64,000 bases of DNA, from the NCBI GenBank assembly GCA_963830915.1, contig CAWHOE010000047.1, positions 7,781 through 71,780 of the forward strand, in the 5' to 3' direction. Below are positions 3,265 to 64,000 of this stretch, in pieces. The stretch's first letter is position 1, and every line of letters begins with the position of its first letter. This DNA comes from a candidate division FCPU426 bacterium (GTDB lineage: Bacteria; Oederibacteriota; Muellerivitia; Muellerivitales; Muellerivitaceae). The notes beneath the pieces were generated by a model. That model did no database searches. It had not been told where the DNA came from and saw only the letters and a list, made by a program, of their open reading frames with translations. Both the position numbers and the translations under genes were made by a program.

Positions 3265-4371
3265 CTATCCCCTCCGACCTATCAACACCGGTCTTCGGTT
3301 GGCATATGAGATATTCAAAAGCACCCCGACCGCGGCGAAGCTAAAGACCAGGGAAGAACCTCCGTAGCTGATGAAAGGCAGGGTCAAGCCTGCCACAGGC
3401 AGGATACCGATGGTCATGCCCACGTTCACGATGACCTGGACGGCGAACATGCTGGCGATACCCAGGGCCAATAACGAACCTTCCCGGTCACGGGCCTTGC
3501 GGGCGATCTCGAAGGACTTGCGGATCATGAAGTAATAAAGACCCAGCACTAACACGCACCCCACGAAACCCCATTCCTCTCCGACGACCGAGAAAATGAA
3601 ATCCGTATGATGTTCAGGGATGAAAGACAACTGGGTTTGGCTTCCCTGCAGGTAACCCTTCCCCGCCACCCCACCCGACCCGATGGCGATCATGGATTGG
3701 ATGATGTTGTAGCCGGCGCCCAGGGGGTCATCCAACGGATTAATGAAAACTTCCAACCTTTCCCTTTGGTAATCCTTCAGGAAATTCCAGATCAAGGGGC
3801 TGGAGGCGCCTGCCAGGATGAACATCCAGGCTAGCCACCGGTATTGCACCCCGCCCACATACATCAAAATGATAGAAACGGGGACCAGAAGCAGGGCCGA
3901 CCCAAGGTCCGGTTGTTTCAATATAAGGATAAGAGGAAGACCCAGCATGCCCAGCAGGAACAAGACCCTGCCGAAGAAGAACAATTCCACCGTTCGGCTT
4001 CCTATATAACGGGCCAAAACCAGCAGAACCGACAGTTTGGCGAGTTCGGAGGGTTGGTAGGAAAGGATGCCCAGCTTGATCCACCGCCTGGCCCCGTTGG
4101 TCTGGTCACCGATGAATAACACGGCAAAGAGCGAGATGATGGATATCCAATAGAAGATATAGGAAGCTTCGATCCAGAACCGGTAGTCGATCTTGGAAAA
4201 GAGCCACATACCCGCCAAGGATATGAGGAACCAGAACAACTGTTTGCGCCAAAGCCCAGCGATATCGGGGCTGTGGAAGGTGGCCGAATAGACCACGAAG
4301 ATACCGATGACCGAAAGGGCCAATATCTCCGAGATCAGGAACCAGTCCATGCTTCTAAAATAAGCCTTCAA
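3265..4371 (-). CDS. rodA: rod shape-determining protein RodA (FtsW/RodA/SpoVE family)
   Basis: Polytopic membrane protein with SEDS-family motifs. Its start overlaps the stop of the upstream PBP2 gene, and it sits in an mreBCD-mrdA operon. Confidence 0.9.
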   Translation of the reverse strand: MKAYFRSMDWFLISEILALSVIGIFVVYSATFHSPDIAGLWRKQLFWFLISLAGMWLFSKIDYRFWIEASYIFYWISIISLFAVLFIGDQTNGARRWIKLGILSYQPSELAKLSVLLVLARYIGSRTVELFFFGRVLFLLGMLGLPLILILKQPDLGSALLLVPVSIILMYVGGVQYRWLAWMFILAGASSPLIWNFLKDYQRERLEVFINPLDDPLGAGYNIIQSMIAIGSGGVAGKGYLQGSQTQLSFIPEHHTDFIFSVVGEEWGFVGCVLVLGLYYFMIRKSFEIARKARDREGSLLALGIASMFAVQVIVNVGMTIGILPVAGLTLPFISYGGSSLVFSFAAVGVLLNISYANRRPVLIGRRG

Positions 4372-12319: not shown

Positions 12320-13047
12320 AACAAAAGTGGTTCTGGGGGACCTTTCTATTCTTAACGATATTCACCAGTACGGTCATCGCCTGGGCCCTGATCTTTTCTC
12401 CAGTTAGGTTCTCGCCGAAAACGCTCCAGGAATTCCAGACCAAAATTAACGGTACGGAAGAAAAGAACCAGATCTGGGTCAATGAGGGTCATTTAAAAGA
12501 ACTTCTCCCGGTCATCGTGGAAAAATGGGACAAGGAGGGATGGAAAATCCATGGCCAAAAAATGGACCTAACCCCCGCCGTCCTGGGATTGTTGGATGAT
12601 TCCATCGATCTGGAGGACAACCTTCAGGTCCGCGTTTTCAAGAAGGGGGATCTTTATCGAACTTTGGGGTTATGGGAGCCTCCCGGAAACGACGAAACCT
12701 ATGGTTGGGTCGGAGAACTGCCCGATCGGGCTTTTAACCCCAGTCTAGCGGTTGAGAAATGGGACTTCCCCATGGCGCCGCCACCCAACGCCTTAAGGAT
12801 CTATTGCCAGGGTTTGGAGAACTTAAAGGTCGCTTTGATCTCCCTCCCCCCGCCCCGGAATTTCGACGATCAATTCCTGGCCTATTGTTCCTCCCAAGGC
12901 TTCACCGGAAAACTTTGGAAGAAAAACGAGGACGAAAGCGTCTATTTCCTCAACCAAGGCGGGAAAAAGATCCTGGCGTTCTTGAATATGGATGAAGGGG
13001 AAGGTCACATCTCCCTGGTCTCGTTCGACCCAAAAAATAAATATTGA
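12316..13047 (+). CDS. hypothetical membrane-anchored protein in Tad locus
   Basis: Start MKQKWFWGTFLFL at 12316 (ATGA overlap). One N-terminal TM helix; no recognised domain. Confidence 0.45.
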   Translation: MKQKWFWGTFLFLTIFTSTVIAWALIFSPVRFSPKTLQEFQTKINGTEEKNQIWVNEGHLKELLPVIVEKWDKEGWKIHGQKMDLTPAVLGLLDDSIDLEDNLQVRVFKKGDLYRTLGLWEPPGNDETYGWVGELPDRAFNPSLAVEKWDFPMAPPPNALRIYCQGLENLKVALISLPPPRNFDDQFLAYCSSQGFTGKLWKKNEDESVYFLNQGGKKILAFLNMDEGEGHISLVSFDPKNKY

Positions 13048-27803: not shown

Positions 27804-30446
27804 TCAAACGTAGCCTACCCTATTTGACTTTTTTTTGCCACTTGAATCTTTGGCGGGCTCTGGGGCGTTTTTTTCTTCCTTTGGAGTCGGTTCAGGAACT
27901 TTTTCTATCGTCGGAGGAGTAGGCGCGGATGTCACGGGCGCTGCGGGCGCAGGATTTTTGGTCTTTAACAAGCTCTGAAGATCGTCCCATTTCTTCTTGG
28001 CCTCCAGATTATCCGGTTCCAATTGCAGTATCCGCTTGTAGATCTTGGAAGCCTCCTCGTACAGTCCTTGGCGGGTATAGATGTCCGCCACGGCGATCGT
28101 CATGAATTCATCCTTGCCTTCTTCGACCAGGCTGTCACCTTTCGAGGAGGATTCCATGCTCATGCTCTTCAGGTCCACCAAAGGCTCGACCTTCTTCACG
28201 GACCTTTCAGCCTCTTCCCTGGCTTTCTTCTCAGCCTCTTCCTTGGCCTTCTTCTCGGCTTCTTCCCTGGCTTTTCGTTCAGCCTCTTCTTTGGCTTTCT
28301 TTTCAGCCTCTTCTTTGGCCCGCTTTTCTATTTCTTCCTTGGCTTTTCGTTCAGCTTCTTCCTTGGCCTTTTTCTCGGCTTCTTCTTTTACTTTTGTTTC
28401 CAGTTCTTCCCGTATCTTTCGTTCCAGTTCTTCCTTGATCTTTCTATCGGCTTCTTCCTTGGCCATCCTTTCCATTTCTTCTTTGGCTTTCTTTTCCGCC
28501 TCTTCCCTCGCCTTCTTTTCAGCGCTTTCTCGAGCGATACGCTCTATCTCCATTTTAGCTTTCAATTCGGCTTCTTCCCTGGCTTTACGTTCCAACTCGG
28601 TTTTGGCCCTCGCTTCCGCCTCGACCTTGGCTTTTTGTTCCATCTCGGCCCTTAACCGTTTGGCTTCATCATGGGCCTTCTTCTCCATTTCGGCCCGGAG
28701 AACTTTTTCTTCCTCTTCCTTGACCTTTTTCTCCGCCTCAATAGCTCCGATCACATCCTCGCCTGTTTTCACATAGGCGGTATAGGCAAGGTTCAACTTT
28801 TCCTTGATCTCGGGTTTATCCGGGAAGGTCTCGACCAGATGCTGGTATATCTCAATGGCCTCCTCGACCATGCCCTGTTTCACGAAATTGTCCGCGATCG
28901 AAAGTTCCGCCTTCCAATCATCGGATGTATCCAACTCAATGACGGTCGATTTCGCGGGTTCAGGAGGCGGGGTCACGGCCTCGACCGGAGGCGGACTGGT
29001 ACGTTCCGAGCTTGCTTGGGGTTTTTCAGCTTCCTTTTCCAGGTCCATTACCCCTGAAGACGCCGCAGGCTTAATTTCCACAGGAGCTTTTGTCTCCGCG
29101 GGGGCTTTGGGCGGTTCAGCCGGGGCCTGAGCTTTATCCACCACTGCCCCGACCACCATTTTTTGGGTTTCGGTATGGTCTGGATTCAGCTCCAGGATCT
29201 TCCGGGCCAATTCTTGGACCTTATCCTTCTTTTGTTGTTTCTCGTAGATCGGGATGGCTTTGGAAAAGGCCTCGACGGCTCCGTCTTTGTCCCCATTGAT
29301 CTTAAGCAACTCACCCAACTTCTCCCGAAAGGCCGCGTTGTTCTCATCAAGGGAAGCCCTGTTTTTCGCGAATTCCAACGCTTTTTTGAAATCGTTTTTC
29401 GCTTCGTATTTTTCGACCAATACGCCGAAGGCCGTGATGGCCTCGTTCTTTGACCCGCTTTTTTTCAGGGAAACCTCAGCCAAGGCCTCTATGGCCAACA
29501 AATTCTCTTTATCGACCTTTAAGGCTTTTTGGATGTTCTCGCTCGCTTTATCGAATTGATTCTGTTCCATTTGAACTCGGGCCAAATGGACCAGCGCCCC
29601 GATATGGTTCACCTTGAACCTGAGCAGGCTCTCGAACTCGGATTTGGCTTCCGAATATTGCTGCTTTTTGTAATAAACCAAGCCCAAAACATAATGGGCC
29701 TCGATGCTCTTGAACTCGACAGCCTTCAAGCCGTACTGGTATGCCTTCTCCAGGTCGTTCTGGTTCAAGGCCAGTTCCGCGATGATCAGGTATTCTTTTT
29801 TCGCGTCGCTTTCCGAGCCTTGTTTGATGAAGATCTGGGCGAGGTTCGACCTTCCCTCAATATTATTTGGCTCGAGCTGGACCACTTTCTGGAACATCTC
29901 CTGAGCCTTCTTATATAAACGGTGGTTGAGAAAGTTCGTGCCCAACACTTGGTATTCCTTGACCGCTTCCGCGGCCAGTCCCTTTTTCTCGAAAAGTTCC
30001 CCCAGATTGGCGTAAGCCGCTAGGTTCTCAGGATCCAGGCTGATGACTTCTTTCAAGGCCTCTATGGCAGAATCGATATCACCCTGTTCAATGGCCGATT
30101 CGGCCTTGATGGTTTGTTTGATGAGATTTTGTCGTTTTTGTGATTCGGGAGGGAGAGAACTTGAATCTAAAGCGGCTAATTTTTTATTAACGATGACCGA
30201 TTTTTCAGTTTGTCCACGGGCGGAAAAGTCCGTCGAAACCTTGATGTACTCGTCAAAGGCCTCGCGAACAGCTCCTTTTTTGACATAGACATCGCCCAAC
30301 ATGTTATGGGTGTTGATGTCTTCAGGATCCAACGCGATGAGCTTTTTGTATTCCTCGATCGCTTTGTCCCAGCGGCCTTCCTGGAAATAGATATAGGCCA
30401 TTTTAACGATGTTTTTTTTGTCACCACCGCTAGCTGGAACGTTCAT
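27804..30446 (-). CDS. large TPR-repeat protein with central charged coiled-coil (KAKEEAE repeats); MshN-like partner of the ATPase
   Basis: About 430 aa of TPR repeats, a Pro-rich linker, about 170 aa of (EEAEKKAK)n, a further TPR region and a Pro/Ala-rich tail. No signal peptide. Confidence 0.7.
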   Translation of the reverse strand: MNVPASGGDKKNIVKMAYIYFQEGRWDKAIEEYKKLIALDPEDINTHNMLGDVYVKKGAVREAFDEYIKVSTDFSARGQTEKSVIVNKKLAALDSSSLPPESQKRQNLIKQTIKAESAIEQGDIDSAIEALKEVISLDPENLAAYANLGELFEKKGLAAEAVKEYQVLGTNFLNHRLYKKAQEMFQKVVQLEPNNIEGRSNLAQIFIKQGSESDAKKEYLIIAELALNQNDLEKAYQYGLKAVEFKSIEAHYVLGLVYYKKQQYSEAKSEFESLLRFKVNHIGALVHLARVQMEQNQFDKASENIQKALKVDKENLLAIEALAEVSLKKSGSKNEAITAFGVLVEKYEAKNDFKKALEFAKNRASLDENNAAFREKLGELLKINGDKDGAVEAFSKAIPIYEKQQKKDKVQELARKILELNPDHTETQKMVVGAVVDKAQAPAEPPKAPAETKAPVEIKPAASSGVMDLEKEAEKPQASSERTSPPPVEAVTPPPEPAKSTVIELDTSDDWKAELSIADNFVKQGMVEEAIEIYQHLVETFPDKPEIKEKLNLAYTAYVKTGEDVIGAIEAEKKVKEEEEKVLRAEMEKKAHDEAKRLRAEMEQKAKVEAEARAKTELERKAREEAELKAKMEIERIARESAEKKAREEAEKKAKEEMERMAKEEADRKIKEELERKIREELETKVKEEAEKKAKEEAERKAKEEIEKRAKEEAEKKAKEEAERKAREEAEKKAKEEAEKKAREEAERSVKKVEPLVDLKSMSMESSSKGDSLVEEGKDEFMTIAVADIYTRQGLYEEASKIYKRILQLEPDNLEAKKKWDDLQSLLKTKNPAPAAPVTSAPTPPTIEKVPEPTPKEEKNAPEPAKDSSGKKKSNRVGYV
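28195..28700. repeat. imperfect 24-bp tandem coding repeats (EEAEKKAK units)
   Basis: cttcttccttggccttcttctcggcttcttccctggc... read directly. The repeats also generate spurious plus-strand ORFs. Confidence 0.7.
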
Positions 30447-30796: not shown

Positions 30797-32665
30797 ATGA
30801 AAACGAACAAACCTTACCAGAAAACTGATCCCCGGATCGAGGAAGCGCTTTTTCTCCATCGATCGGGAAAACTGGCGGAAGCGGAAGAACAGATCAAGAA
30901 GCTGTTGAACTTCTTCCCCAAGAATACCCAGCTCCTGACCCACTTGGGGACCATTCACCTTCAACAGGGCAATCCGGAAGAAGGGGTCCGTATCCTGAGC
31001 AAGTCCTTACAGATCGATCCCGATCAGCCCATGGCCTTATTGAACCGCTCTAACGGGCTGGTCACCCTAAAAAGATTTCAAGATGCCCTGACCTCTTACG
31101 ACCGGACCCTCGCCATCAAACCGGATTTTGCCGAGGCCTATTACAACCGAGGCGAGGTCCTGCTGGGGCTCAACCGTCCTCAGGACGCCGCCGCCGACTT
31201 TGACCGCGCCGCGTCCCTCCATCCTGATTTCCCTGGGGCTTATTACAACCGCGGCCTCGCCCTTGAAAAACTCGGACGGCTGGAAGAATCCCTCGCCAGT
31301 TTTGACCGGGCCCTCGCTCTTCGTCCCCAATATCCCGAGGCCCATTTCAATAAGGGCAATATCCTGAGAAAACTTGGGCGTTTTGACGACGCCTTGATCG
31401 AATACGGGCTATCGATCACCCAACGGCCAGATCACGTTGAGTCTTATACGAACCAAGGTTATGTCCTTCAGGATCTCCAACGCCTGGATGACGCCCTGGC
31501 CAGTTATGACCGAGCCATCGCGCTCCAGCCGGATCGGCCCGAGGCCCATAACAACCGAGGGACCGTTCTGCGTAAACTCAAAAGACTTGACGAAGCCCTT
31601 GCCGCCCATGACCGGGCCATCGCTCTCCATCCAGGTTATGCCGAGGCCCATAACAACCGGGGCACGGTCCTTCAGGAACTCAAAAGGCTGGACGAGGCCC
31701 TATTAGCCCACGACCGGGCCATTTCACTCGACCCAGGTTATATGGAGGCCTACTGGAACAAGGCGCTGCTGAAACTTCTGATGGGCGATTATCCCGAAGG
31801 ATGGGAACTTTATGAAAAACGCGCCAAGCCCAGACGATTCACCCAACCCCTTTGGAACGGCACAGAATCGCTCAGGGGCAAAACCATCCTGGTCCATACC
31901 GAACAGGGTTTTGGGGATGTGATCCAATTCAGCCGGTACGCTCCCATGCTCGAGAAACTGGGCGGCCTGGTCCTATTCGAGGCTCCCCAAGCCCTGGTTT
32001 CTGTCCTTTCGACCCTGGCGGGAAACATCACTTTCATCGAGGCCGGCAAACCCCTTCCTGATTTCGACTTTTATCTTCCCATGATGAGCCTGCCATCGGT
32101 CTTCCAGACAACGTTGGAAACCATTCCCGCCGAAGTCCCCTACTTGTTCCCTCCGCCAGGCCAAAAGGATCTATGGACTGAAAAGCTGGGGAAACGGACC
32201 GTCCCAAGGATCGGTTTGGTTTGGTCGGGGAAACAGGAACATTCCAATGACCATAACCGAAGTATCGGCTTGGAAAACCTCGCTCCTTTACTGAAATTGC
32301 CCTTCGAATTCCATTCCTTGCAAAAGGAATACAGGGAAAAAGACAAGGCCTTGCTGGCTGGCCTTCCCACCTTGAAGGACCATCACCGGGATCTGAGGGA
32401 CTTTTCCGACACGGCGGGTCTGATCCATGAAATGGATATGGTCCTTTCGGTCGATACTTCTGTGGCCCATTTAGCTGGCGCCATGGGCAAACCGCTCTGG
32501 GTGCTTCTGCCCTATCTGCCGGATTATCGATGGCTATTGGAACGTTCGGATAGCCCCTGGTATCCAACCGCGACCCTTTTCAGGCAATCCAAGGACGGGG
32601 ACTGGCAATCGGTTATTTCGGAAGTCCTAAAACGGATGGAAACTGAACTCAATATAAACCTATAG
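30797..32665 (+). CDS. TPR-repeat protein with C-terminal GT9-like (heptosyltransferase-like) glycosyltransferase domain
   Basis: About 330 aa of canonical 34-aa TPRs (AEAYYNRG.., AEAHNNRG..), then GKTILVHTEQGFGDVIQFSRY..SVDTSVAHLAGAMGKP. Confidence 0.7.
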   Translation: MKTNKPYQKTDPRIEEALFLHRSGKLAEAEEQIKKLLNFFPKNTQLLTHLGTIHLQQGNPEEGVRILSKSLQIDPDQPMALLNRSNGLVTLKRFQDALTSYDRTLAIKPDFAEAYYNRGEVLLGLNRPQDAAADFDRAASLHPDFPGAYYNRGLALEKLGRLEESLASFDRALALRPQYPEAHFNKGNILRKLGRFDDALIEYGLSITQRPDHVESYTNQGYVLQDLQRLDDALASYDRAIALQPDRPEAHNNRGTVLRKLKRLDEALAAHDRAIALHPGYAEAHNNRGTVLQELKRLDEALLAHDRAISLDPGYMEAYWNKALLKLLMGDYPEGWELYEKRAKPRRFTQPLWNGTESLRGKTILVHTEQGFGDVIQFSRYAPMLEKLGGLVLFEAPQALVSVLSTLAGNITFIEAGKPLPDFDFYLPMMSLPSVFQTTLETIPAEVPYLFPPPGQKDLWTEKLGKRTVPRIGLVWSGKQEHSNDHNRSIGLENLAPLLKLPFEFHSLQKEYREKDKALLAGLPTLKDHHRDLRDFSDTAGLIHEMDMVLSVDTSVAHLAGAMGKPLWVLLPYLPDYRWLLERSDSPWYPTATLFRQSKDGDWQSVISEVLKRMETELNINL

Positions 32666-48153: not shown

Positions 48154-48347
48154 TGTGCCGATTCTCCAAAATAATAGATGCATAAGAAATCGGTACTATA
48201 CCGACTTCCTTAAAAGCTTTATTGAAAGGTCCCTTGCGTTGAGGCTTCAAGCCGAAACGCTCGATTTAGTTGTGCCGGGCCCATAGATAAATAGGCCCGG
48301 CCATGGCATGTGCCGATTCTCCAAAATAATAGATGTATAAGAAATCG
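48154..48347. repeat. two 39-nt direct repeats (1 mismatch) flanking a GC hairpin
   Basis: TGTGCCGATTCTCCAAAATAATAGATG(C/T)ATAAGAAATCG at 48154-48192 and 48309-48347. Hairpin GCCGGGCC..GGCCCGGC at 48273-48300. Confidence 0.6.
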
Positions 48348-55241: not shown

Positions 55242-55274
55242 TCTAGTAACTTTCCATTCAATACCGTTTCCATT

Positions 55275-55428
55275 GTCCACGATGGGTCCCTGTCGTGGAC
55301 ATCTAAAACCTCAGATTAAAGCCCCAACTTTTTTAGAAGTTGGGCCGTGGTGTACCACTCAATGCCGGTTCCTTCAAAATCCCCGTCATTTGATCAAATG
55401 GGCATTTCCAACTCCAGAGCCAAAGCCA
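55275..55428. repeat. copy A of ~153-bp direct repeat (hairpin GTCCACGAtgggtccctgTCGTGGAC + 3' fragment of a PIN gene)
   Basis: About 94% identical to 56221-56373. It encodes a remnant ...IPIWSNDGDFEGTGIEWYTTAQLLKKLGL-like tail without the rest of the gene. Confidence 0.7.
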
Positions 55429-56220: not shown

Positions 56221-56373
56221 GTCCACGATGGGTCCCTGTCGTGGACATCAAAACCTCAGATTAAAGCCCCAACTTTTTAAGAAGTTGGGCCGTGGTGTAC
56301 CACTCAATGCCGGTTCCTTCAAAATCCCCGTCGTTTGACCAAATGGGTATTTCCAGCTCCAGAGCCAAAGCCA
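56221..56373. repeat. copy B of ~153-bp direct repeat (overlaps 3' end of PIN gene 56261..56692)
   Basis: See copy A. Confidence 0.7.
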
Positions 56374-56918: not shown

Positions 56919-57025
56919 AAAACCACCTTCCCGCGACCGTTGATACTTTCTACCCCTTCAATATAGGATTTCATAAAATTATGTCAACAATTATGTACAC
57001 AATATACATTTTCCTTTGTCCACGA

Positions 57026-57106
57026 CGGCGGTGCCCTAAAGTAGACCCTATAGCAGAACCTATCGGCACGCTATAGGGTCTGCTACTGGGATCCCATCGT
57101 GGACAA
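57026..57106. repeat. nested-palindrome element (outer TTGTCCACGA/TCGTGGACAA, inner GTAGACCCTATAGC/GCTATAGGGTCTGC)
   Basis: Read directly. The outer arms are the same GTCCACGA arms as the hairpin in repeat copies A and B. Confidence 0.65.
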
Positions 57107-57138
57107 ACCATTACGATAATTTATGGTTTTCGCCAGAT

Positions 57139-57717: not shown

Positions 57718-57907
57718 CTTCGGGGTTATCCCAGACCTTGGCGAATGACTTTTCAGAGAGTTTGGAAGCCGCCCTGGTCAATGGTCTGTCTGTTCCCTTC
57801 TGGCCCAAAAATTCAACGAAATCCTCTACTTCGTTTATTTTCTCGGCCGGCAGGGCTTCGATTTTCTTGATGAGTGTTAAGACGTTTTTCCTGTTCATGA
57901 AAACCAT
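57695..57907 (-). CDS. antitoxin partner of MazF-like toxin
   Basis: 70 aa, overlaps the toxin start. Confidence 0.5.
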   Translation of the reverse strand: MVFMNRKNVLTLIKKIEALPAEKINEVEDFVEFLGQKGTDRPLTRAASKLSEKSFAKVWDNPEDAIYDKL

Positions 57908-58010
57908 TATACCTTTCCTTTAGATTTTATAAAGTCGCAAAACCTAATAGTCAATTATCCATAAGAAACCAAAAGGTTATATGAATGAACCCAGGGTCAG
58001 TTAACCCGGG

Positions 58011-58150
58011 GTCAGGCCTGAAAATGAAGTGCAACCTGTTTGGTGCCTTGTGCCAATCAACCATTAATGTTGGCTGTGTCTCTGTGCCTCTGTGGTGAAA
58101 TGGAAAATTAATGAGCTACCAACCAAAATTTCATTTTACAGGCCCGACCC
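58011..58150. repeat. MITE-like palindromic element (terminal IR TCAGGCCTGAAAATGAA / TTCATTTTACAGGCCCGA)
   Basis: A shortened copy lies at 63948..>64000. A right-end-only copy lies at 60166-60194. Confidence 0.55.
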
Positions 58151-58165
58151 CCACACACTCATGAC

Positions 58166-58296
58166 GGTCGGCAGCTAACAGTCGACAAGTGACAGCTCAC
58201 AGCTGACAGCTGACGGTCGGCAGCTCACTAACGGCAGCTGGCAGTCGACAGCTAACAGGCGACAGGCCCCAGTTAACAGTCGACAGCTCACAGCTA
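58166..58296. repeat. imperfect microsatellite block (GACAGCTGACAG / CAGTCGACAG units)
   Basis: Inverted counterpart at 61960-62030 (CTGTCGACTGTCAGCTGT...). Confidence 0.65.
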
Positions 58297-58466
58297 GTAA
58301 TAAGGCGTACACCCCCTACCCTTCCTAGTTTCGGGTTGGAGGTCGTGGGAAGGGCCTAGAGGACTCAAAGTTGTCATGGACATTAGTATTTTCTCAGAAT
58401 CTGAACACTTTGCCCCGAGTCGGGGCAAGAAATCCCTCAGCACAGGTGCCCAGCGGCTGGGCAAAA

Positions 58467-58705
58467 TGCCAGTGGGAGTCAGGCCAAATGCTAACGGCCA
58501 AACCCTTAATACCAGTGGGCGTGCCAGTAGAGATGCCATTGGACGGCTCAAAATGCCAGTGGGAATGCCAGTGGACAACCCCAAATGCCAGTGGGGGTCA
58601 GACAAAATTCCAATGGCCAAACCCTAAATGCCAGTGGGCATGCCAGTGGAGATGCCATTGGACGGCTCAAAATGCCAGTGGGAATGCCAGTGGACGTGCC
58701 AGTGG
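58467..58705. repeat. direct-repeat array, family 1: ~11 x (A)TGCCAGTGG, with a ~95-bp higher-order duplication
   Basis: Counted directly. Spacing is irregular, 3-20 bp. Confidence 0.7.
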
Positions 58706-58916
58706 TGGCACGATGGCACGATAGGTTTCTGGTGGCACAATGTCATCGATGACCATGGTTTGTCCCCAGAAATTCTAGGGTTGTCCCCAGTTTTTCGATG
58801 TTTTGTCCCCAGAAATCCGGTTTTGTCCCCGGTTTTCCCTATTGTGCCACTGGCACAATAGCGTGGCACGATAGGCGTCCGGTGGCACGATGCCGGTGAT
58901 GGCACGATGGCACGAT
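58704..58916. repeat. family 2: ~7 x TGGCACGAT (opposite half-site orientation), 4 x TTGTCCCC(A/G)G at ~22-bp spacing, 23-bp perfect palindrome CTATTGTGCCACTGGCACAATAG
   Basis: Counted directly. The palindrome is at about 58846-58868. Confidence 0.7.
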
Positions 58917-58995
58917 CCCCCTTCGCCTTTCGTCGCTATCGCTAGGCTACGAAGGGCAGGCCGCTAGGCTTCGGGAACATGTAAGCATCGGATTT

Positions 58996-59220
58996 GTTTA
59001 CTGGAAAACTCCGGGTTTACTGGATTTAGCCGGTTTGTTCACTGGAAACGGGTCCTGTTTACTGGATTTGCTCGAAGAGTTTACTGGAAATCCGCTACTG
59101 TTTACTGGGAACACCGGGTGTGTTTACTGGAAAACACCGGAGTTTACTGGATTTGCTCGGAGAGTTTACTGGAAACGGGTCCTGTTTACTGGATTTGTGG
59201 GGGAGTTTACGGAGTTTCCG
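58996..59220. repeat. iteron-like array: ~11 x GTTTACTGGA(A/T) at 19-22-bp period
   Basis: Unit types alternate, tttactggaaa... and tttactggattt... A ~60-bp higher-order repeat is present. Confidence 0.75.
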
Positions 59221-59235
59221 ACAATCCCCCCTTTT

Positions 59236-59480
59236 GACTTGCCAATTTCGTTACTCGGAGTAACAAAGTAATCGGCCACTTGCCAATTAATGTCATCGGT
59301 GACCGGCGCATTTACCGGCACTTGCCAATTTTTATTACCCGGTAATATTTTGGGTATGGGTGGGGGGGTTAGGCATCAGAAATTACCACGCCGTGATAAT
59401 TCAGACCCCTTAATTTATAACGGCGTTATAAACCAGGGGCTTGGGGGAGGGGGGGTACCCCCCTGGTTTTATCACACTGT
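59236..59480. promoter_or_regulatory. 3 x ACTTGCCAATT each followed by a short palindrome, then further palindromes (TTATAACGGCGTTATAA, GGGGGGTACCCCCC)
   Basis: Read directly. The palindromes are TTACTCgGAGTAA, CGGTgACCG and TTACCcGGTAA. Confidence 0.55.
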
Positions 59481-59641
59481 AATAAATCTGGGGCCGGGCT
59501 GAGGGGAGGCTTGGTAAAAGGCTTATTTTGGACCCTTCGACGCGGCTCAGGGCAAGAGTCTTACGTATGGCTGAGGTTGTCATGCCGACCTTCCCATAAA
59601 TCCATTAAAGAGGTCGGCACTGTGGTGAAAGTTGGTTTATT

Positions 59642-60108
59642 TCACTTAACTTCTTTCAGGTTAGGGTCTTGGGTACCGTATTGGGAACCGCTCAGGTCCA
59701 CATCCTCCGAGGGGTCTTGTTTGTAGAGCCTGTAACAGGTGGCGCGGCCGGTATAAACAAAGAACCCGAACTCGGTCTTGACCGTGTTCACCTCATCGAA
59801 AATGACCGCGTTGGCCCCGTATTCCGCCGCCTTCGCCTGGAACTCACTGATCAGTTTCTTGTCCGACCATTCGCATCTCTGGGGCGGCAGGAGCGTGCAG
59901 ACTTGGACCCATTGGAGGTCCGGGGGGAAGGCTTCCTTCGAGAGGAAGAAATAGACCTCGCTGGTTTCAAGGGGGGATAGCTGGCTTCCCCATTGAGCTT
60001 TTGGGCCACCGCCGGCCAGTCATAGAGGGTCACGGCGCAACCGGCCAAACCCAGCGTCAGGCCGGCACAACAAATGAGCCCGAATAGGTTTCCAGAACGA
60101 GACGCCAT
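59642..60108 (-). CDS. lipoprotein, hypothetical; apparent frameshift in G6 run at 59970-59975
   Basis: N-terminal MASRSGNLFGLICCAGLTLGLAGCAV (lipobox). After the G-run the other frame continues ...EVYFFLSKEAF...AAEYGANAVIFDEVNTVK...* for about 100 aa. The track shows only the 85-aa N-terminal ORF 59851..60108. Confidence 0.5.
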
Positions 60109-60198
60109 TTTTATTCCGCTTTCTTTTTTCGGGTGATCGACCGGACCATCGCGATCACTTCATTCGATCAAAATTTCATTTTTCAGGCCCGGCCCCGA

Positions 60199-60510
60199 TC
60201 ATTCGGAATTCTTACGGGCGCGGTCCAGGGAAAGGGCTGGGTCGGCCATGTCCTTAAGCCGTTCATTTCCCACTTTTGCCAACCAAAGCTTCAATGGCTC
60301 GGCTTTGGGGCTGGGGACAGATTGAACCAGTCGTAAAAGTGTCTCGGAATCCGCGACATCTGTCAGATATTCCTTGCCGTCTGGGGCAATCAATTTCAGG
60401 GCGTTACAGTTTGTAACGACCTGGCCTTCCACTAATTCAGTTGGTGACAATTTGTCACCGACTAACTCTGAACCATCGACAAACTGTCGACGGTTCAATT
60501 CTTTAACCAT
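60199..60510 (-). CDS. phage-related regulatory protein fragment (antirepressor/Bro-like C-terminal region)
   Basis: SPKAEPLKLWLAKVGNERLKDMADP resembles the conserved PEA+.FK.W motif region of phage antirepressor-type proteins. An earlier DinD guess was rejected. Confidence 0.3.
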   Translation of the reverse strand: MVKELNRRQFVDGSELVGDKLSPTELVEGQVVTNCNALKLIAPDGKEYLTDVADSETLLRLVQSVPSPKAEPLKLWLAKVGNERLKDMADPALSLDRARKNSE

Positions 60511-61959: not shown

Positions 61960-62030
61960 TGCTGTCGACTGTCAGCTGTTTTTTGTCAGCTGTTAGCTGT
62001 CGACTGTGGACTGTCGACTGTTAGCTGCCG
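61960..62030. repeat. inverted copy of the GACAGCTG microsatellite block
   Basis: CTGTCGACTGTCAGCTGTTTTTTGTCAGCTGTTAGCTGTCGACTGTGGACTGTCGACTGTTAGCTG. Confidence 0.65.
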
Positions 62031-63925: not shown

Positions 63926-64000
63926 AGATACAATAGTGGATCCTTGGCCAGGCCTGAAAATAGATAATTAACGAATTACCAACCAAAATTTCATTTTTTA

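What the first reader, a model, noticed from the sequence alone, without database searches (positions are those of the whole stretch)
58430..59520. 1.1 kb non-coding stretch built from consecutive iteron-like arrays and palindromes
No credible ORF spans this region; the track ORFs here are artefacts of the repeats. It is packed with at least four distinct short direct-repeat families in succession: ~11 x TGCCAGTGG, ~7 x TGGCACGAT, 4 x TTGTCCCCAG, ~11 x GTTTACTGGA and 3 x ACTTGCCAATT. The TGGCACGAT family is the same TGGCA half-site in the opposite orientation to the TGCCAGTGG family. The TTGTCCCCAG copies sit at ~22-bp spacing. The GTTTACTGGA copies have a strict ~21-bp period (two helical turns) with alternating unit types, like RepA iterons of theta plasmids. 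Each ACTTGCCAATT copy is followed by a short palindrome. Several longer perfect palindromes are also present (CTATTGTGCCACTGGCACAATAG, TTATAACGGCGTTATAA, GGGGGGTACCCCCC). This architecture is typical of plasmid/phage origins, partition centromeres or multi-operator control regions, yet no Rep/Par/integrase gene is in the window. It could be the ori/centromere remnant of an integrated plasmid-like element, or a binding-site hub for an unknown regulator.
Basis: seen in the sequence. Interest (0 to 1): 0.75.

Follow-up and report, generated by a model that had tools for sequence, protein, structure and literature searches.

The report
Dispersed mosaic of orphan iteron-like arrays
This 1.1-kb gene-free stretch really is a chain of several different iteron-like repeat arrays, but it belongs to a family of similar patchwork regions scattered through the chromosome rather than being a leftover plasmid origin, and the arrays most likely act as binding platforms that soak up sequence-specific DNA-binding proteins.

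Summary
Window 58160-59520 holds six successive direct-repeat families, all on one strand, and no credible gene. The plasmid-remnant interpretation is not supported. No Rep, Par or integrase gene, AT-rich unwinding element or DnaA box was found, and plasmid and phage collections give no match.

The GTTTACTGGA array recurs at four or more other chromosomal loci in the same metagenomic population, each time joined to different array families and next to unrelated genes. Across about 80 units the 10-nt core is nearly invariant, the spacer is free, and spacing stays at 20-22 bp. Most other families are also phased at multiples of about 10.5 bp, which points to protein binding on DNA.

Arrays are swapped between close strains. 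Where the window has 13 x TGCCAGTGG, the other haplotype has TCCGGCGGAA units. In about 40 viral contigs that same motif at the same spacing forms arrays inside phage replication-initiator genes.

The locus lies in a defence and toxin-antitoxin island. My best reading is a set of orphan iteron arrays that titrate DNA-binding proteins, possibly replication initiators of invading elements. That function is inferred, not shown. It is a new variant of known kinds of repeat, of moderate to high interest.

The parts
58009..58152 (.). Boundary hairpin element (GGGGTCAGGCCTGAAAATGAA ... TTCATTTTACAGGCCCGACCCC) with another small element nested in its loop. It marks the left edge of the array region.
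   Evidence: Compact ~62-nt copies are at L096 4553-4640 and at window 63949 to the window end (complete in L115). The relatives carry a 2.8-kb LemA insertion between two copies.
58172..58297 (+). Heptamer array: about 15-20 contiguous units of type CAGNNNA (CAGCTGA, CAGTCGA, CAGCTAA and similar), period 7.
   Evidence: The same array in reverse orientation is at 61961-62027, it is expanded in L096, and it is also present at L066 2580-2630.
58371..58428 (+). Weak sigma-70-like promoter match (TTGTCA-18-CAGAAT) followed by the perfect hairpin TTGCCCCGA-G-TCGGGGCAA.
   Evidence: (I12). About 92% conserved in the relatives. This is consensus matching only.
58467..58705 (+). Array A: 13 x TGCCAGTGG (10 exact), spacings 12/20/43 bp, as two 119-nt super-repeats (58464-58576 and 58583-58695, 91% identical).
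   Evidence: Absent from the L096 haplotype, which has two TCCGGCGGAA-type units at this position.
58706..58741 (+). Array B, first block: 3 x TGGCAC(G/A)AT.
58760..58832 (+). Array C: 4 x TTGTCCCC(A/G)G spaced 21/22/20 bp, with alternating AAA and TTTT tails.
   Evidence: Nearly identical in the relatives: two spacer substitutions, all cores identical.
58839..58861 (.). Perfect palindrome CTATTGTGCCA-C-TGGCACAATAG, an inverted pair of B-type half-sites.
   Evidence: I5.
58864..58916 (+). Array B, second block: 4 x TGGCACGAT, spacings 19/17/8 bp.
   Evidence: The relatives have one extra 44-nt unit here. B-type blocks are also present in L066, L091 and L072.
58996..59214 (+). Array D: 11 x GTTTACTGGA (8 exact), spacing 19-22 bp, core followed by AA(A/C) or TTT and then a free spacer of 8-9 nt.
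   Evidence: Paralogous arrays of 12-18 units occur in L066, L072, L082 and L091.
59237..59347 (+). Array E: 3 x ACTTGCCAATT spaced 41/42 bp, each followed by a short palindrome (GTTACTC-G-GAGTAAC, GTCA..TGAC, TATTACC-C-GGTAATA).
   Evidence: L091 has one exact copy plus a degenerate copy of this unit.
59407..59473 (+). Palindrome cluster: TTATAACG-G-CGTTATAA, then the nested hairpin AAACCAGGGG...GGGGGGGTACCCCCC...CCCCTGGTTT followed by TTTTAT. It looks like an intrinsic terminator.
   Evidence: (I3, I10).
59583..59627 (.). Dispersed hairpin element GCCGACCTTCCCATAAATCCATTAAAGAGGTCGGC at the right edge of the region.
   Evidence: I25. Other copies are at window 48154-48231, L066 655-740 and 1015-1100, and in L091.

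Best explanation
The region is one member of a family of non-coding 'multi-array' regions scattered through the chromosome of an uncultured Gram-negative-type bacterium. Each region is a patchwork of modules. Each module is an array of 3-18 copies of a 9-11-bp core, usually spaced at multiples of about 10.5 bp.

Shown:
1. The stretch is non-coding.
2. The family is dispersed and mosaic.
3. Cores are conserved while spacers drift.
4. Spacer length is held at two helical turns.
5. Modules are gained, lost and exchanged between close strains.
6. The parts a working origin or centromere would need are absent.

Inferred: each array is a platform on which a sequence-specific DNA-binding protein binds cooperatively along one face of the helix, as plasmid and phage iterons or ParR/TubR-type centromeres do. 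Because the arrays have no cognate gene beside them, they act as sinks that titrate or handcuff those proteins.

The most likely clients are replication initiators or partition proteins of phages and plasmids. On that reading each region is a panel of decoy sites in a defence island. This last step is the most speculative one.
For: Non-coding.

Dispersed family: the metagenome scan found multi-copy GTTTACTGGA arrays on four further contigs of the same metagenome, with unrelated flanks. The flanking genes are ordinary: LacI, sugar-binding protein, TIM-barrel enzyme, NTP-transferase, HigBA, hydrolases, porin.

Mosaic: each locus combines different families.

Binding-site signature: in about 80 D units from 6 loci, every position of the core GTTTAC(T/A)GGA except the T/A position is at least 92% conserved, the spacer is free, and 67 of 74 spacings are 20-22 bp. 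Families C, E, TTCCGATGG, TCCGGCGGAA and GGTATATGG are spaced at 10-11, 20-22 or 41-42 bp. Between haplotypes, substitutions hit 2/217 core positions against 19/405 other positions (p = 0.011).

Turnover: array A is present or absent, array B gains a 44-nt unit, and array A is replaced by TCCGGCGGAA units 96% identical to an L066 unit.

Link to mobile-element origins: TCCGGCGGAA at 21-22 bp forms arrays of 3-9 copies in 40 viral contigs. In 10 of 10 tested they lie inside DUF1376 ORFs; the five scanned against PHROGs match phrog_22470 'replication protein'. Homologues are annotated as replication protein or replication protein O in Burkholderia and Pseudomonas phages. The bacterial loci contain no such gene.

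Context: toxin-antitoxin modules and PADLOC candidate defence systems.

Precedent: plasmid-borne lambda iterons, together with oop transcription, block rep-lambda phages (PMC3349717). Chromosomal iteron clusters titrate RctB, and datA titrates DnaA (PMC6090056).
Against: - No binding protein has been identified.
- For the window's own families (A-E), no cognate phage or plasmid was found convincingly. The single viral hits (L022, L042, L118, L127, L128) fall within what chance allows, because unrelated tandem repeats often share a 10-mer.
- The ACTTGCCAATT pair has no viral match.
- Families A and B and the heptamers are not phased at 10.5 bp.
- Only the window locus is shown to lie in a defence island; L072 and L082 sit among metabolic genes.
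- It is unknown whether a single chromosomal copy of 10-18 sites would titrate enough protein to matter.
- That the other loci belong to the same genome is inferred from shared small repeats, similar GC content and the shared metagenome. It is not proven.
- A promoter-like site and a terminator bracket the arrays on the + strand, which leaves an RNA role open.
Confidence: 0.4

Rival explanations
1. Neutral or selfish hypervariable repeat DNA: a BIME/NIME/BOX-like mosaic that arises by slippage, unequal crossing-over and gene conversion in a repeat-prone genome and has no sequence-specific function.
For: The genome is full of other small dispersed repeats: hairpin elements, palindromes and heptamer arrays. 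Module copy number varies between strains. Arrays sit at contig ends and so break assemblies. Flanking genes have nothing in common.
Against: Slippage copies whole units, yet here cores are nearly invariant while spacers differ both within and between loci, and spacer length stays at 20-22 bp. Several unrelated families obey the same 10.5-bp phasing. Substitutions avoid the cores.
Confidence: 0.22
2. Binding-site arrays for the host's own proteins, such as nucleoid-associated or chromosome-organising factors, or transcription-factor buffers. On this view the region is a regulatory or architectural hub and has nothing to do with mobile elements.
For: The signature is the same as for the best explanation. 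The arrays are dispersed among ordinary genes. Known precedents are datA for DnaA and the RctB titration locus (PMC6090056).
Against: Many different specificities are packed side by side. Whole arrays are present or absent between strains that are otherwise 96-100% identical, which is hard to square with a core host function. The arrays are absent from 185,579 reference species genomes.
Confidence: 0.15
3. A remnant or still-functional replication origin or partition centromere of an integrated plasmid- or phage-like element, or a cis-acting origin that hijacks a helper element's initiator to amplify the island.
For: The arrays follow iteron and centromere grammar. TCCGGCGGAA arrays lie inside phage initiator genes, the lambda-type origin layout. 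The locus is in a variable island with cassette-like gain and loss.
Against: No rep, par or integrase gene was found nearby, and there is no trace of the phage initiator. There is no AT-rich unwinding element and no DnaA box. Plasmid and phage collections give no match. A single replicon would not need five or six different iteron families in a row, and the same arrays occur at several unrelated chromosomal loci.
Confidence: 0.1
4. A ~1.07-kb non-coding RNA transcribed on the + strand whose repeated motifs sequester RNA-binding proteins or endoribonucleases, in the manner of CsrB/RsmZ sponges or the type III antitoxin ToxI.
For: All motifs are on one strand. A promoter-like site (58371-58400) and a good terminator (59448-59473) bracket the arrays. 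The D array has a 42-nt super-unit repeated about 5 times, comparable to ToxI. The neighbours include MazF and PIN RNases.
Against: Phasing at multiples of 10.5 bp with conserved spacer length is a property of double-stranded DNA. No toxN-type gene follows on the same strand. Rfam finds nothing. The promoter match is weak (9 of 12).
Confidence: 0.1

Closest known systems
Iterons of theta-replicating plasmids and lambdoid phage origins (RepA/RepE/pi; lambda O with ori-lambda)
   Same: Direct repeats with a conserved core. They are spaced about two helical turns apart (20-22 bp), occur in multiple copies on one strand, and have variable spacers. One family in the sister loci and in the allelic haplotype (TCCGGCGGAA at 21 bp) has the same core and spacing as arrays inside phage replication-initiator genes.
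   Different: No cognate initiator gene, no AT-rich unwinding element and no DnaA box. Five or six different specificities are chained together. The same arrays recur at several chromosomal loci.
Chromosomal initiator-titration loci (E. coli datA for DnaA; the V. cholerae iteron and 39-mer cluster that titrates RctB; P1 incA)
   Same: Clusters of initiator-binding sites placed away from any origin that work by titration or handcuffing (PMC6090056). This is the proposed mode of action.
   Different: Those loci serve one known host-encoded initiator. Here the client proteins are unknown, there are many specificities, and the arrays vary between strains.
Bacterial and Neisserial intergenic mosaic elements and pneumococcal BOX elements (BIME, NIME, BOX)
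   Same: Dispersed intergenic regions built as mosaics of several short repeat types, with variable numbers of tandem sub-units (reviewed in PMC3184786; the details are from my own knowledge).
   Different: BIME and NIME units are palindromic (REP/PU, dRS3) and BOX modules are 45-60 nt long. Here the units are 9-11-bp direct cores with free spacers and helical phasing.
Direct-repeat centromeres of type II and type III partition systems, and omega-protein heptad operators (parC/ParR, tubC/TubR, pSM19035 omega)
   Same: Arrays of short direct repeats bound cooperatively: 12-bp tubC units resemble the 12-bp spacing in array A, and contiguous 7-bp heptads resemble the CAGNNNA array. This comparison rests on my own knowledge and was not tested here.
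   Different: No parM/parR, tubZ/tubR or omega-type gene is adjacent, and sequence similarity was not examined.
Plasmid-borne lambda origin fragments that exclude rep-lambda phages (the 'inhibition phenotype', PMC3349717)
   Same: Iteron DNA supplied in trans blocks replication initiation of a phage that has matching replication specificity. This is a precedent for a decoy role.
   Different: That system is an artificial multicopy plasmid and also needs oop RNA transcription. The arrays here are natural and single-copy, and they are untested.

Membership tests
Iteron-type replication origin (plasmid or phage) | Several direct repeats with a conserved core, phased at about one or two helical turns | tested here: met
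   Arrays C, D and E are spaced 20-22 or 41-42 bp, and the D core is nearly invariant over about 80 units.
Iteron-type replication origin (plasmid or phage) | A cognate initiator (rep) gene adjacent to or overlapping the iterons | tested here: not met
   Pfam on the neighbouring ORFs and the relatives' called genes show only toxin-antitoxin, HNH and lipoprotein genes. tblastn with 10 phage initiators finds nothing. Not every window ORF was scanned.
Iteron-type replication origin (plasmid or phage) | An adjacent AT-rich DNA-unwinding element, often with DnaA boxes | tested here: not met
   The lowest 40-nt GC inside the arrays is 33-35%, about the window's 5th percentile. No DnaA box lies inside the arrays; the one 1-mismatch match in 57900-59700 is at 57955.
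Iteron-type replication origin (plasmid or phage) | Supports autonomous or initiator-dependent replication | not testable with these tools
   Requires cloning and a replication assay.
Partition centromere (parS, parC, sopC, tubC) | A repeat array next to a parA/parB, parM/parR or tubZ/tubR operon | tested here: not met
   Arrays are present, but no partition gene was found among 31 window ORFs scanned or among the relatives' called genes.
Dispersed intergenic mosaic repeats (BIME/NIME/BOX type) | Multiple copies in intergenic regions at unrelated chromosomal loci | tested here: met
   L066, L072, L082 and L091 have unrelated flanks and ordinary genes. That they belong to the same genome is inferred.
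Dispersed intergenic mosaic repeats (BIME/NIME/BOX type) | Each copy is a mosaic of several motif types in variable number and order | tested here: met
   Presence/absence table of families across loci and the sequences themselves.
Dispersed intergenic mosaic repeats (BIME/NIME/BOX type) | Units are palindromic stem-loops (REP/PU, dRS3) | tested here: not met
   The array units are direct repeats on one strand. Hairpin elements occur only at the edges.
Integron gene cassette | attC site with conserved R''/R' boxes (RYYYAAC ... GTTRRRY), and an intI gene at the head of the array | tested here: not met
   The boundary hairpins lack conserved GTTRRRY boxes. No tyrosine recombinase was found among the ORFs scanned. 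No attC covariance model was available, so this judgement is by eye.
CRISPR array | Repeats of 23-50 nt separated by unique spacers of similar length, with cas genes | tested here: not met
   Cores are 9-11 nt and spacers 0-12 nt within a block. There are no cas genes apart from a generic HNH match.
Type III toxin-antitoxin RNA antitoxin (ToxI-like) | A tandem repeat array followed, after a terminator, by a toxN/abiQ-type gene on the same strand | tested here: not met
   No + strand gene follows the arrays; the next gene lies on the - strand and is a frameshifted lipoprotein gene.
Initiator-titration locus (datA-like) | A cluster of binding sites for a known initiator that lowers its free concentration | not testable with these tools
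   The client protein is unknown. Only the site architecture can be compared.

The most novel reading that the evidence does not exclude
The multi-array regions are panels of decoy origins or centromeres. On this reading the chromosome collects iteron arrays copied from the origins of phages and plasmids that attack it. When such an element enters, its replication initiator or partition protein is titrated or handcuffed on the chromosomal array, and the element fails to replicate or segregate. That would be a protein-free, DNA-only immunity. It would evolve by swapping array modules, which would explain the many specificities side by side, the strain-to-strain turnover and the position in a defence island.
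Probability: 0.15. Interest if true: 0.85.

Novelty: new variant of a known kind. Interest (0 to 1): 0.6.

Why it matters
Iterons and direct-repeat centromeres are known as parts of the replicon they serve, and dispersed bacterial repeats are known mostly as palindromic REP- or MITE-type elements. This locus combines the two. Arrays with the grammar of iterons are detached from any initiator gene, chained together with five or six specificities, copied to several chromosomal sites and exchanged between close strains.

If they are protein sinks, that would add a class of cis-acting DNA elements that shape which proteins are free in the cell. If their clients are phage or plasmid proteins, they would be a defence that needs no protein of its own and that gene-based searches for defence systems cannot see.

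There is also a practical point. Regions like this break short-read assemblies and attract false gene calls.

Tried and rejected
1. BLASTN of 58150-59520 against the plasmid and phage collections at distant sensitivity gave no match.
2. The reference-genome scan for the GTTTACTGGA pair gave only 14 scattered single hits, none of them the Ga0326728-type variable-spacer array; those with three or more copies are unrelated perfect tandem repeats. The source species is not in that collection, so the taxon stays undetermined.
3. I tried to fetch the source contig (81,795 bp, held by NCBI and ENA). It was not retrievable, and only short identical Logan contigs came back.
4. Using the arrays' artefactual translations as bait found no mis-called arrays elsewhere.
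5. Integron reading: the boundary hairpins recur at cassette-like junctions, but I saw no conserved attC boxes and no integrase, so I did not file it as an integron.
6. tRNA or tmRNA fragments next to arrays: some strings look like tRNA 3' ends, but ARAGORN and Rfam find nothing.
7. RNA folding of both strands was uninformative, because no shuffles are run above 1 kb.
8. Sigma-54 reading of TGGCACGAT: the -24 element matches, but no TTGC follows at the right distance (by eye).
9. Most viral hits for TGCCAGTGG, TTCCGATGG and GTTTACTGGA are coding low-complexity repeats or perfect tandem repeats. The 19-nt palindrome hit (L199) lies in an unannotated gene.
10. Named phages with TCCGGCGGAA arrays: Magia, vB_E192a and vB_PL1 homologues lack the motif, and only their C-terminal halves are conserved.
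11. L071, L079 and L095 share the 10-mer but are unrelated perfect repeats.
Full report
**1. The observation**

The stretch is as repeat-packed as described. Exact counts:

| Family | Exact copies | Total with near-matches |
|---|---|---|
| TGCCAGTGG | 10 | 13 |
| TGGCACGAT | 6 | 8, plus one inverted copy |
| TTGTCCCCAG | 3 | 4 |
| GTTTACTGGA | 8 | 11 |
| ACTTGCCAATT | 3 | 3 |

Each family reads on the + strand, apart from the second arm of the 58839-58861 palindrome. Exact copies elsewhere in the 64 kb are essentially absent. Apart from a coding repeat at 28.2 kb, this is the only place in the window where 9-mers are locally enriched. The three named palindromes are present.

It recurs reverse-complemented at 61961-62027.

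Nothing here is a gene:
- Pfam finds nothing for the nine overlapping ORFs.
- The ORF over the GTTTACTGGA array has no homologue among 5.8 billion proteins.
- The ORF over the TGCCAGTGG array gives only two weak low-complexity hits among 1.84 billion representatives.
- Rfam finds nothing.

**2. Surroundings**

The window is chromosomal. It carries ThrRS, PBP2, three tRNA genes, MsrAB, DsbD and an ECF sigma factor. From about 53.4 kb to the window end it turns into a variable island of small genes, nearly all on the minus strand:
- PIN, PIN_2, MazF with DUF2281, and a HigB-like gene with an HI1420-type antidote
- an HNH protein
- a lipoprotein gene that is frameshifted here
- a 103-aa fragment of a PADLOC PDC-S13 protein

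Close relatives add HEC-01A/B and PDC-S01 candidate defence systems.

Small hairpin elements recur at gene junctions. They lack attC-type boxes, so I do not call the island an integron.

**3. Close relatives**

Three contigs of 173-183 kb from other samples carry the syntenic locus. The GTTTACTGGA, ACTTGCCAATT and TTGTCCCCAG arrays and the palindromes are 96-100% identical there. The region still differs by whole modules:
- The TGCCAGTGG array is absent.
- The TGGCACGAT block has one extra 44-nt unit.
- A 2.8-kb LemA cassette sits between two copies of the boundary hairpin.

Where the window has 13 x TGCCAGTGG, the other haplotype has two units of a different family, TCCGGCGGAA. A 27-nt stretch there is 96% identical to a unit at another locus, L066. 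Both haplotypes occur in several public samples.

**4. A dispersed family**

Their flanks do not match the window. Each is again a gene-free patchwork:

| Locus | Content |
|---|---|
| L066 | GTCCTGTAACAGGACA, GTGACCGGT-type and TCCGGCGGAA arrays, a TGGCACGAT block, 18 x GTTTACTGGA |
| L082 | 17 x TTCCGATGG, then 12 x GTTTACTGGA |
| L091 | 11 x GTTTACAGGA running into GTTTACTGGA, a GTATA-core array, TGGCACGAT, ACTTGCCAATT |
| L072 | 12 x GTTTACTGGA |

Their neighbours are ordinary genes, with no Rep, Par, integrase or transposase. The array is absent from 185,579 reference species genomes.

**5. Signature of a DNA-binding site**

Over about 80 units from six loci, every position of the core GTTTAC(T/A)GGA except the T/A position is at least 92% conserved. 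The next two bases are AA or TT. The remaining 8-9 nt are free, and 67 of 74 spacings are 20-22 bp. Slippage would copy the spacer as well. Here spacer sequence drifts while spacer length is held at two helical turns.

Families C, E, TTCCGATGG, TCCGGCGGAA and GGTATATGG are likewise spaced at 10-11, 20-22 or 41-42 bp. Families A and B and the heptamers are not. Between the two haplotypes, substitutions fall on 2 of 217 core positions against 19 of 405 other positions (p = 0.011). Some spacer changes are block replacements, so this test is supportive rather than decisive.

**6. It is not an origin or a centromere**
- No initiator or partition gene was found nearby, and there is no trace of the phage initiator.
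- There is no AT-rich unwinding element and no DnaA box.
- Plasmid and phage collections give no match.
- One replicon would not need five or six iteron families in a row, and the arrays sit at several unrelated loci.

**7. A link to phage origins**

TCCGGCGGAA pairs at 21-22 bp occur in 40 viral contigs. They form arrays of 3-9 units, usually followed by AACGCTCTTAAGGGAGAGGGAG and a purine-rich tract.

In 10 of 10 tested contigs the arrays lie inside ORFs that carry DUF1376. The five of these scanned against PHROGs all match phrog_22470 'replication protein', and some also match phrog_3992 or phrog_1408. Homologues are annotated as replication protein or replication protein O in Burkholderia and Pseudomonas phages.

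Only the C-terminal half is conserved with named phages at the nucleotide level, and those named homologues lack the motif. That fits an N-terminal domain co-varying with its iterons, as in lambda O and ori-lambda. This last comparison rests on my own knowledge.

The same core at the same spacing occurs in L066, and as two units at 12-nt spacing in the allelic position of the window's array A, in both places without any such gene.

For the window's own families the viral hits are single cases:
- L022: four GTTTACTGGATTG copies inside a DnaD-like loader gene.
- L042: a multi-array non-coding region in a 238-kb viral contig with TGCCAGTGGG at 12 nt.
- L118, L127 and L128.

One search shows that unrelated tandem repeats often share a 10-mer, so I give these little weight. 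The ACTTGCCAATT pair has no viral match.

**8. Mechanism**

What is shown: a non-coding, dispersed, mosaic family of core-conserved, helically phased arrays that turns over between strains and lacks the other parts of an origin.

What is inferred: each array is a cooperative binding platform for a sequence-specific DNA-binding protein. Having no cognate gene beside it, it acts as a sink.

Known precedents for such sinks are datA and the RctB-titrating iteron cluster (PMC6090056), and plasmid-borne lambda iterons that block rep-lambda phages (PMC3349717).

The many specificities side by side, the strain-level turnover, the defence-island setting and the TCCGGCGGAA match all favour proteins of mobile elements as the clients. 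This remains unproven.

The rivals are neutral repeat DNA, host-protein sites, a true origin remnant, and a sponge RNA. The RNA rival has some support: a weak promoter at 58371-58400 and a good terminator at 59448-59473 bracket the arrays.

**9. Comparison and novelty**

The arrays work like iterons or direct-repeat centromeres, but they fail the membership tests for an origin or a centromere. They are distributed like BIME, NIME or BOX mosaics, but their units are not palindromic. I found no description of such regions in the literature searched. I rate this as a new variant of known kinds.

**10. Limits**

- The organism is unidentified.
- That the sister loci belong to the same genome is inferred.
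- Only 31 window ORFs were scanned against Pfam.
- No binding protein is known.
- The scans of the large collections were capped at one pattern each.

Noticed in passing
window 58009-58152, 60170-60195, 63949-64000 (complete in L115 1745-1810); L096 4553-4640 and 7245-7285: A ~62-nt hairpin element (GTCAGGCCTGAAAAT, a ~30-nt loop with TACCAACCAA, then ATTTTTCAGGCYTGAC) recurs at gene junctions. In the relatives, two copies flank a 2.8-kb LemA + 584-aa insertion that the window lacks, which looks like cassette gain or loss. No attC-type boxes are seen.
   Followed up: partly
window 58172-58297 (+) and 61961-62027 (reverse orientation); L096 11033-11390; L066 2580-2630: Contiguous heptamer arrays of type CAGNNNA. 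The two window copies are inverted relative to each other and bracket about 3.7 kb. The right-hand one is expanded to three blocks in the other haplotype. They resemble the heptad operators bound by ribbon-helix-helix proteins such as omega of pSM19035 (from my own knowledge).
   Followed up: partly
window 55274-55428 and 56222-56373; 57018-57110: A ~155-nt duplication that includes the palindrome TGTCCACGA...TCGTGGACA lies next to the PIN and PIN_2 genes. A longer bulged hairpin with the same outer arms sits upstream of the MazF module.
   Followed up: no
window 59642-60108 (-): The lipoprotein-like gene next to the arrays is split by a frameshift into 85-aa and 49-aa ORFs. It is intact (155 aa) in the relatives (L002 3145-3612).
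   Followed up: yes
window 60199-60510 (-); L192 537-2290; L002 11830-13026: Defence context: the 103-aa gene is a fragment of a PADLOC PDC-S13-type protein (E = 2.6e-33). The relatives carry HEC-01A/B (2e-150 and 7e-80) and PDC-S01 (2e-153) in the same island, and the two haplotypes differ in which genes they hold.
   Followed up: partly
L146-L185 (about 40 IMG/VR contigs), e.g. L170 3016-3227, L181 6547-6621: TCCGGCGGAA (more generally TTCC-N3-GGAA) arrays at 21-22 bp lie inside DUF1376 / phrog_22470 replication genes and are followed by AACGCTCTTAAGGGAGAGGGAG and a purine-rich tract. This is a probable origin-inside-initiator-gene arrangement. I found no annotation of it in the three named-phage records I fetched.
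   Followed up: partly
L042 1500-2100 (IMGVR_UViG_3300031784_001926, 238 kb): A large viral contig has its own multi-array non-coding region: CCCCGTATATACCCCT x 3, about 10 x CGTATAGCCT at 11 nt, GGGTAAAAAG repeats, and TGCCAGTGGG pairs at 12 nt inside a 66-nt super-unit. The flanking ORFs have no PHROG match.
   Followed up: partly
L079 5740-5901, L095 1-90, L009 (Fibrobacter MAG): A perfect 21-nt tandem array, GAGTTTACTGGAACGATTTCT, lies about 400 nt downstream of a tRNA-Arg gene (seen in L079 and L095) at contig ends. It may be an integrated element's iterons. It shares the 10-mer with the window by coincidence.
   Followed up: no
L072 ~12620-12650; L066 ~175-215; L091 ~3440-3480: Strings resembling tRNA 3' ends (GGTTCGATTCCGGCC, GCGGATTCGACTCCC) lie next to the arrays. 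ARAGORN and Rfam call no tRNA or tmRNA there.
   Followed up: partly
window 28204-28523 and 31463-31741: Coding tandem repeats (24/48/72-nt period, and 102-nt TPR units) lie inside two large TPR-protein genes. They are unrelated to the finding.
   Followed up: no
window 48154-48231 and 59583-59627; L066 655-740 and 1015-1100; L091: Another dispersed small hairpin element, GCCGACCTTCCCATAAA...GAGGTCGGC, often with a second part (GTACCGATTTCCAATAC...GAATCGGCAC). It is found at the edges of multi-array regions and elsewhere.
   Followed up: no
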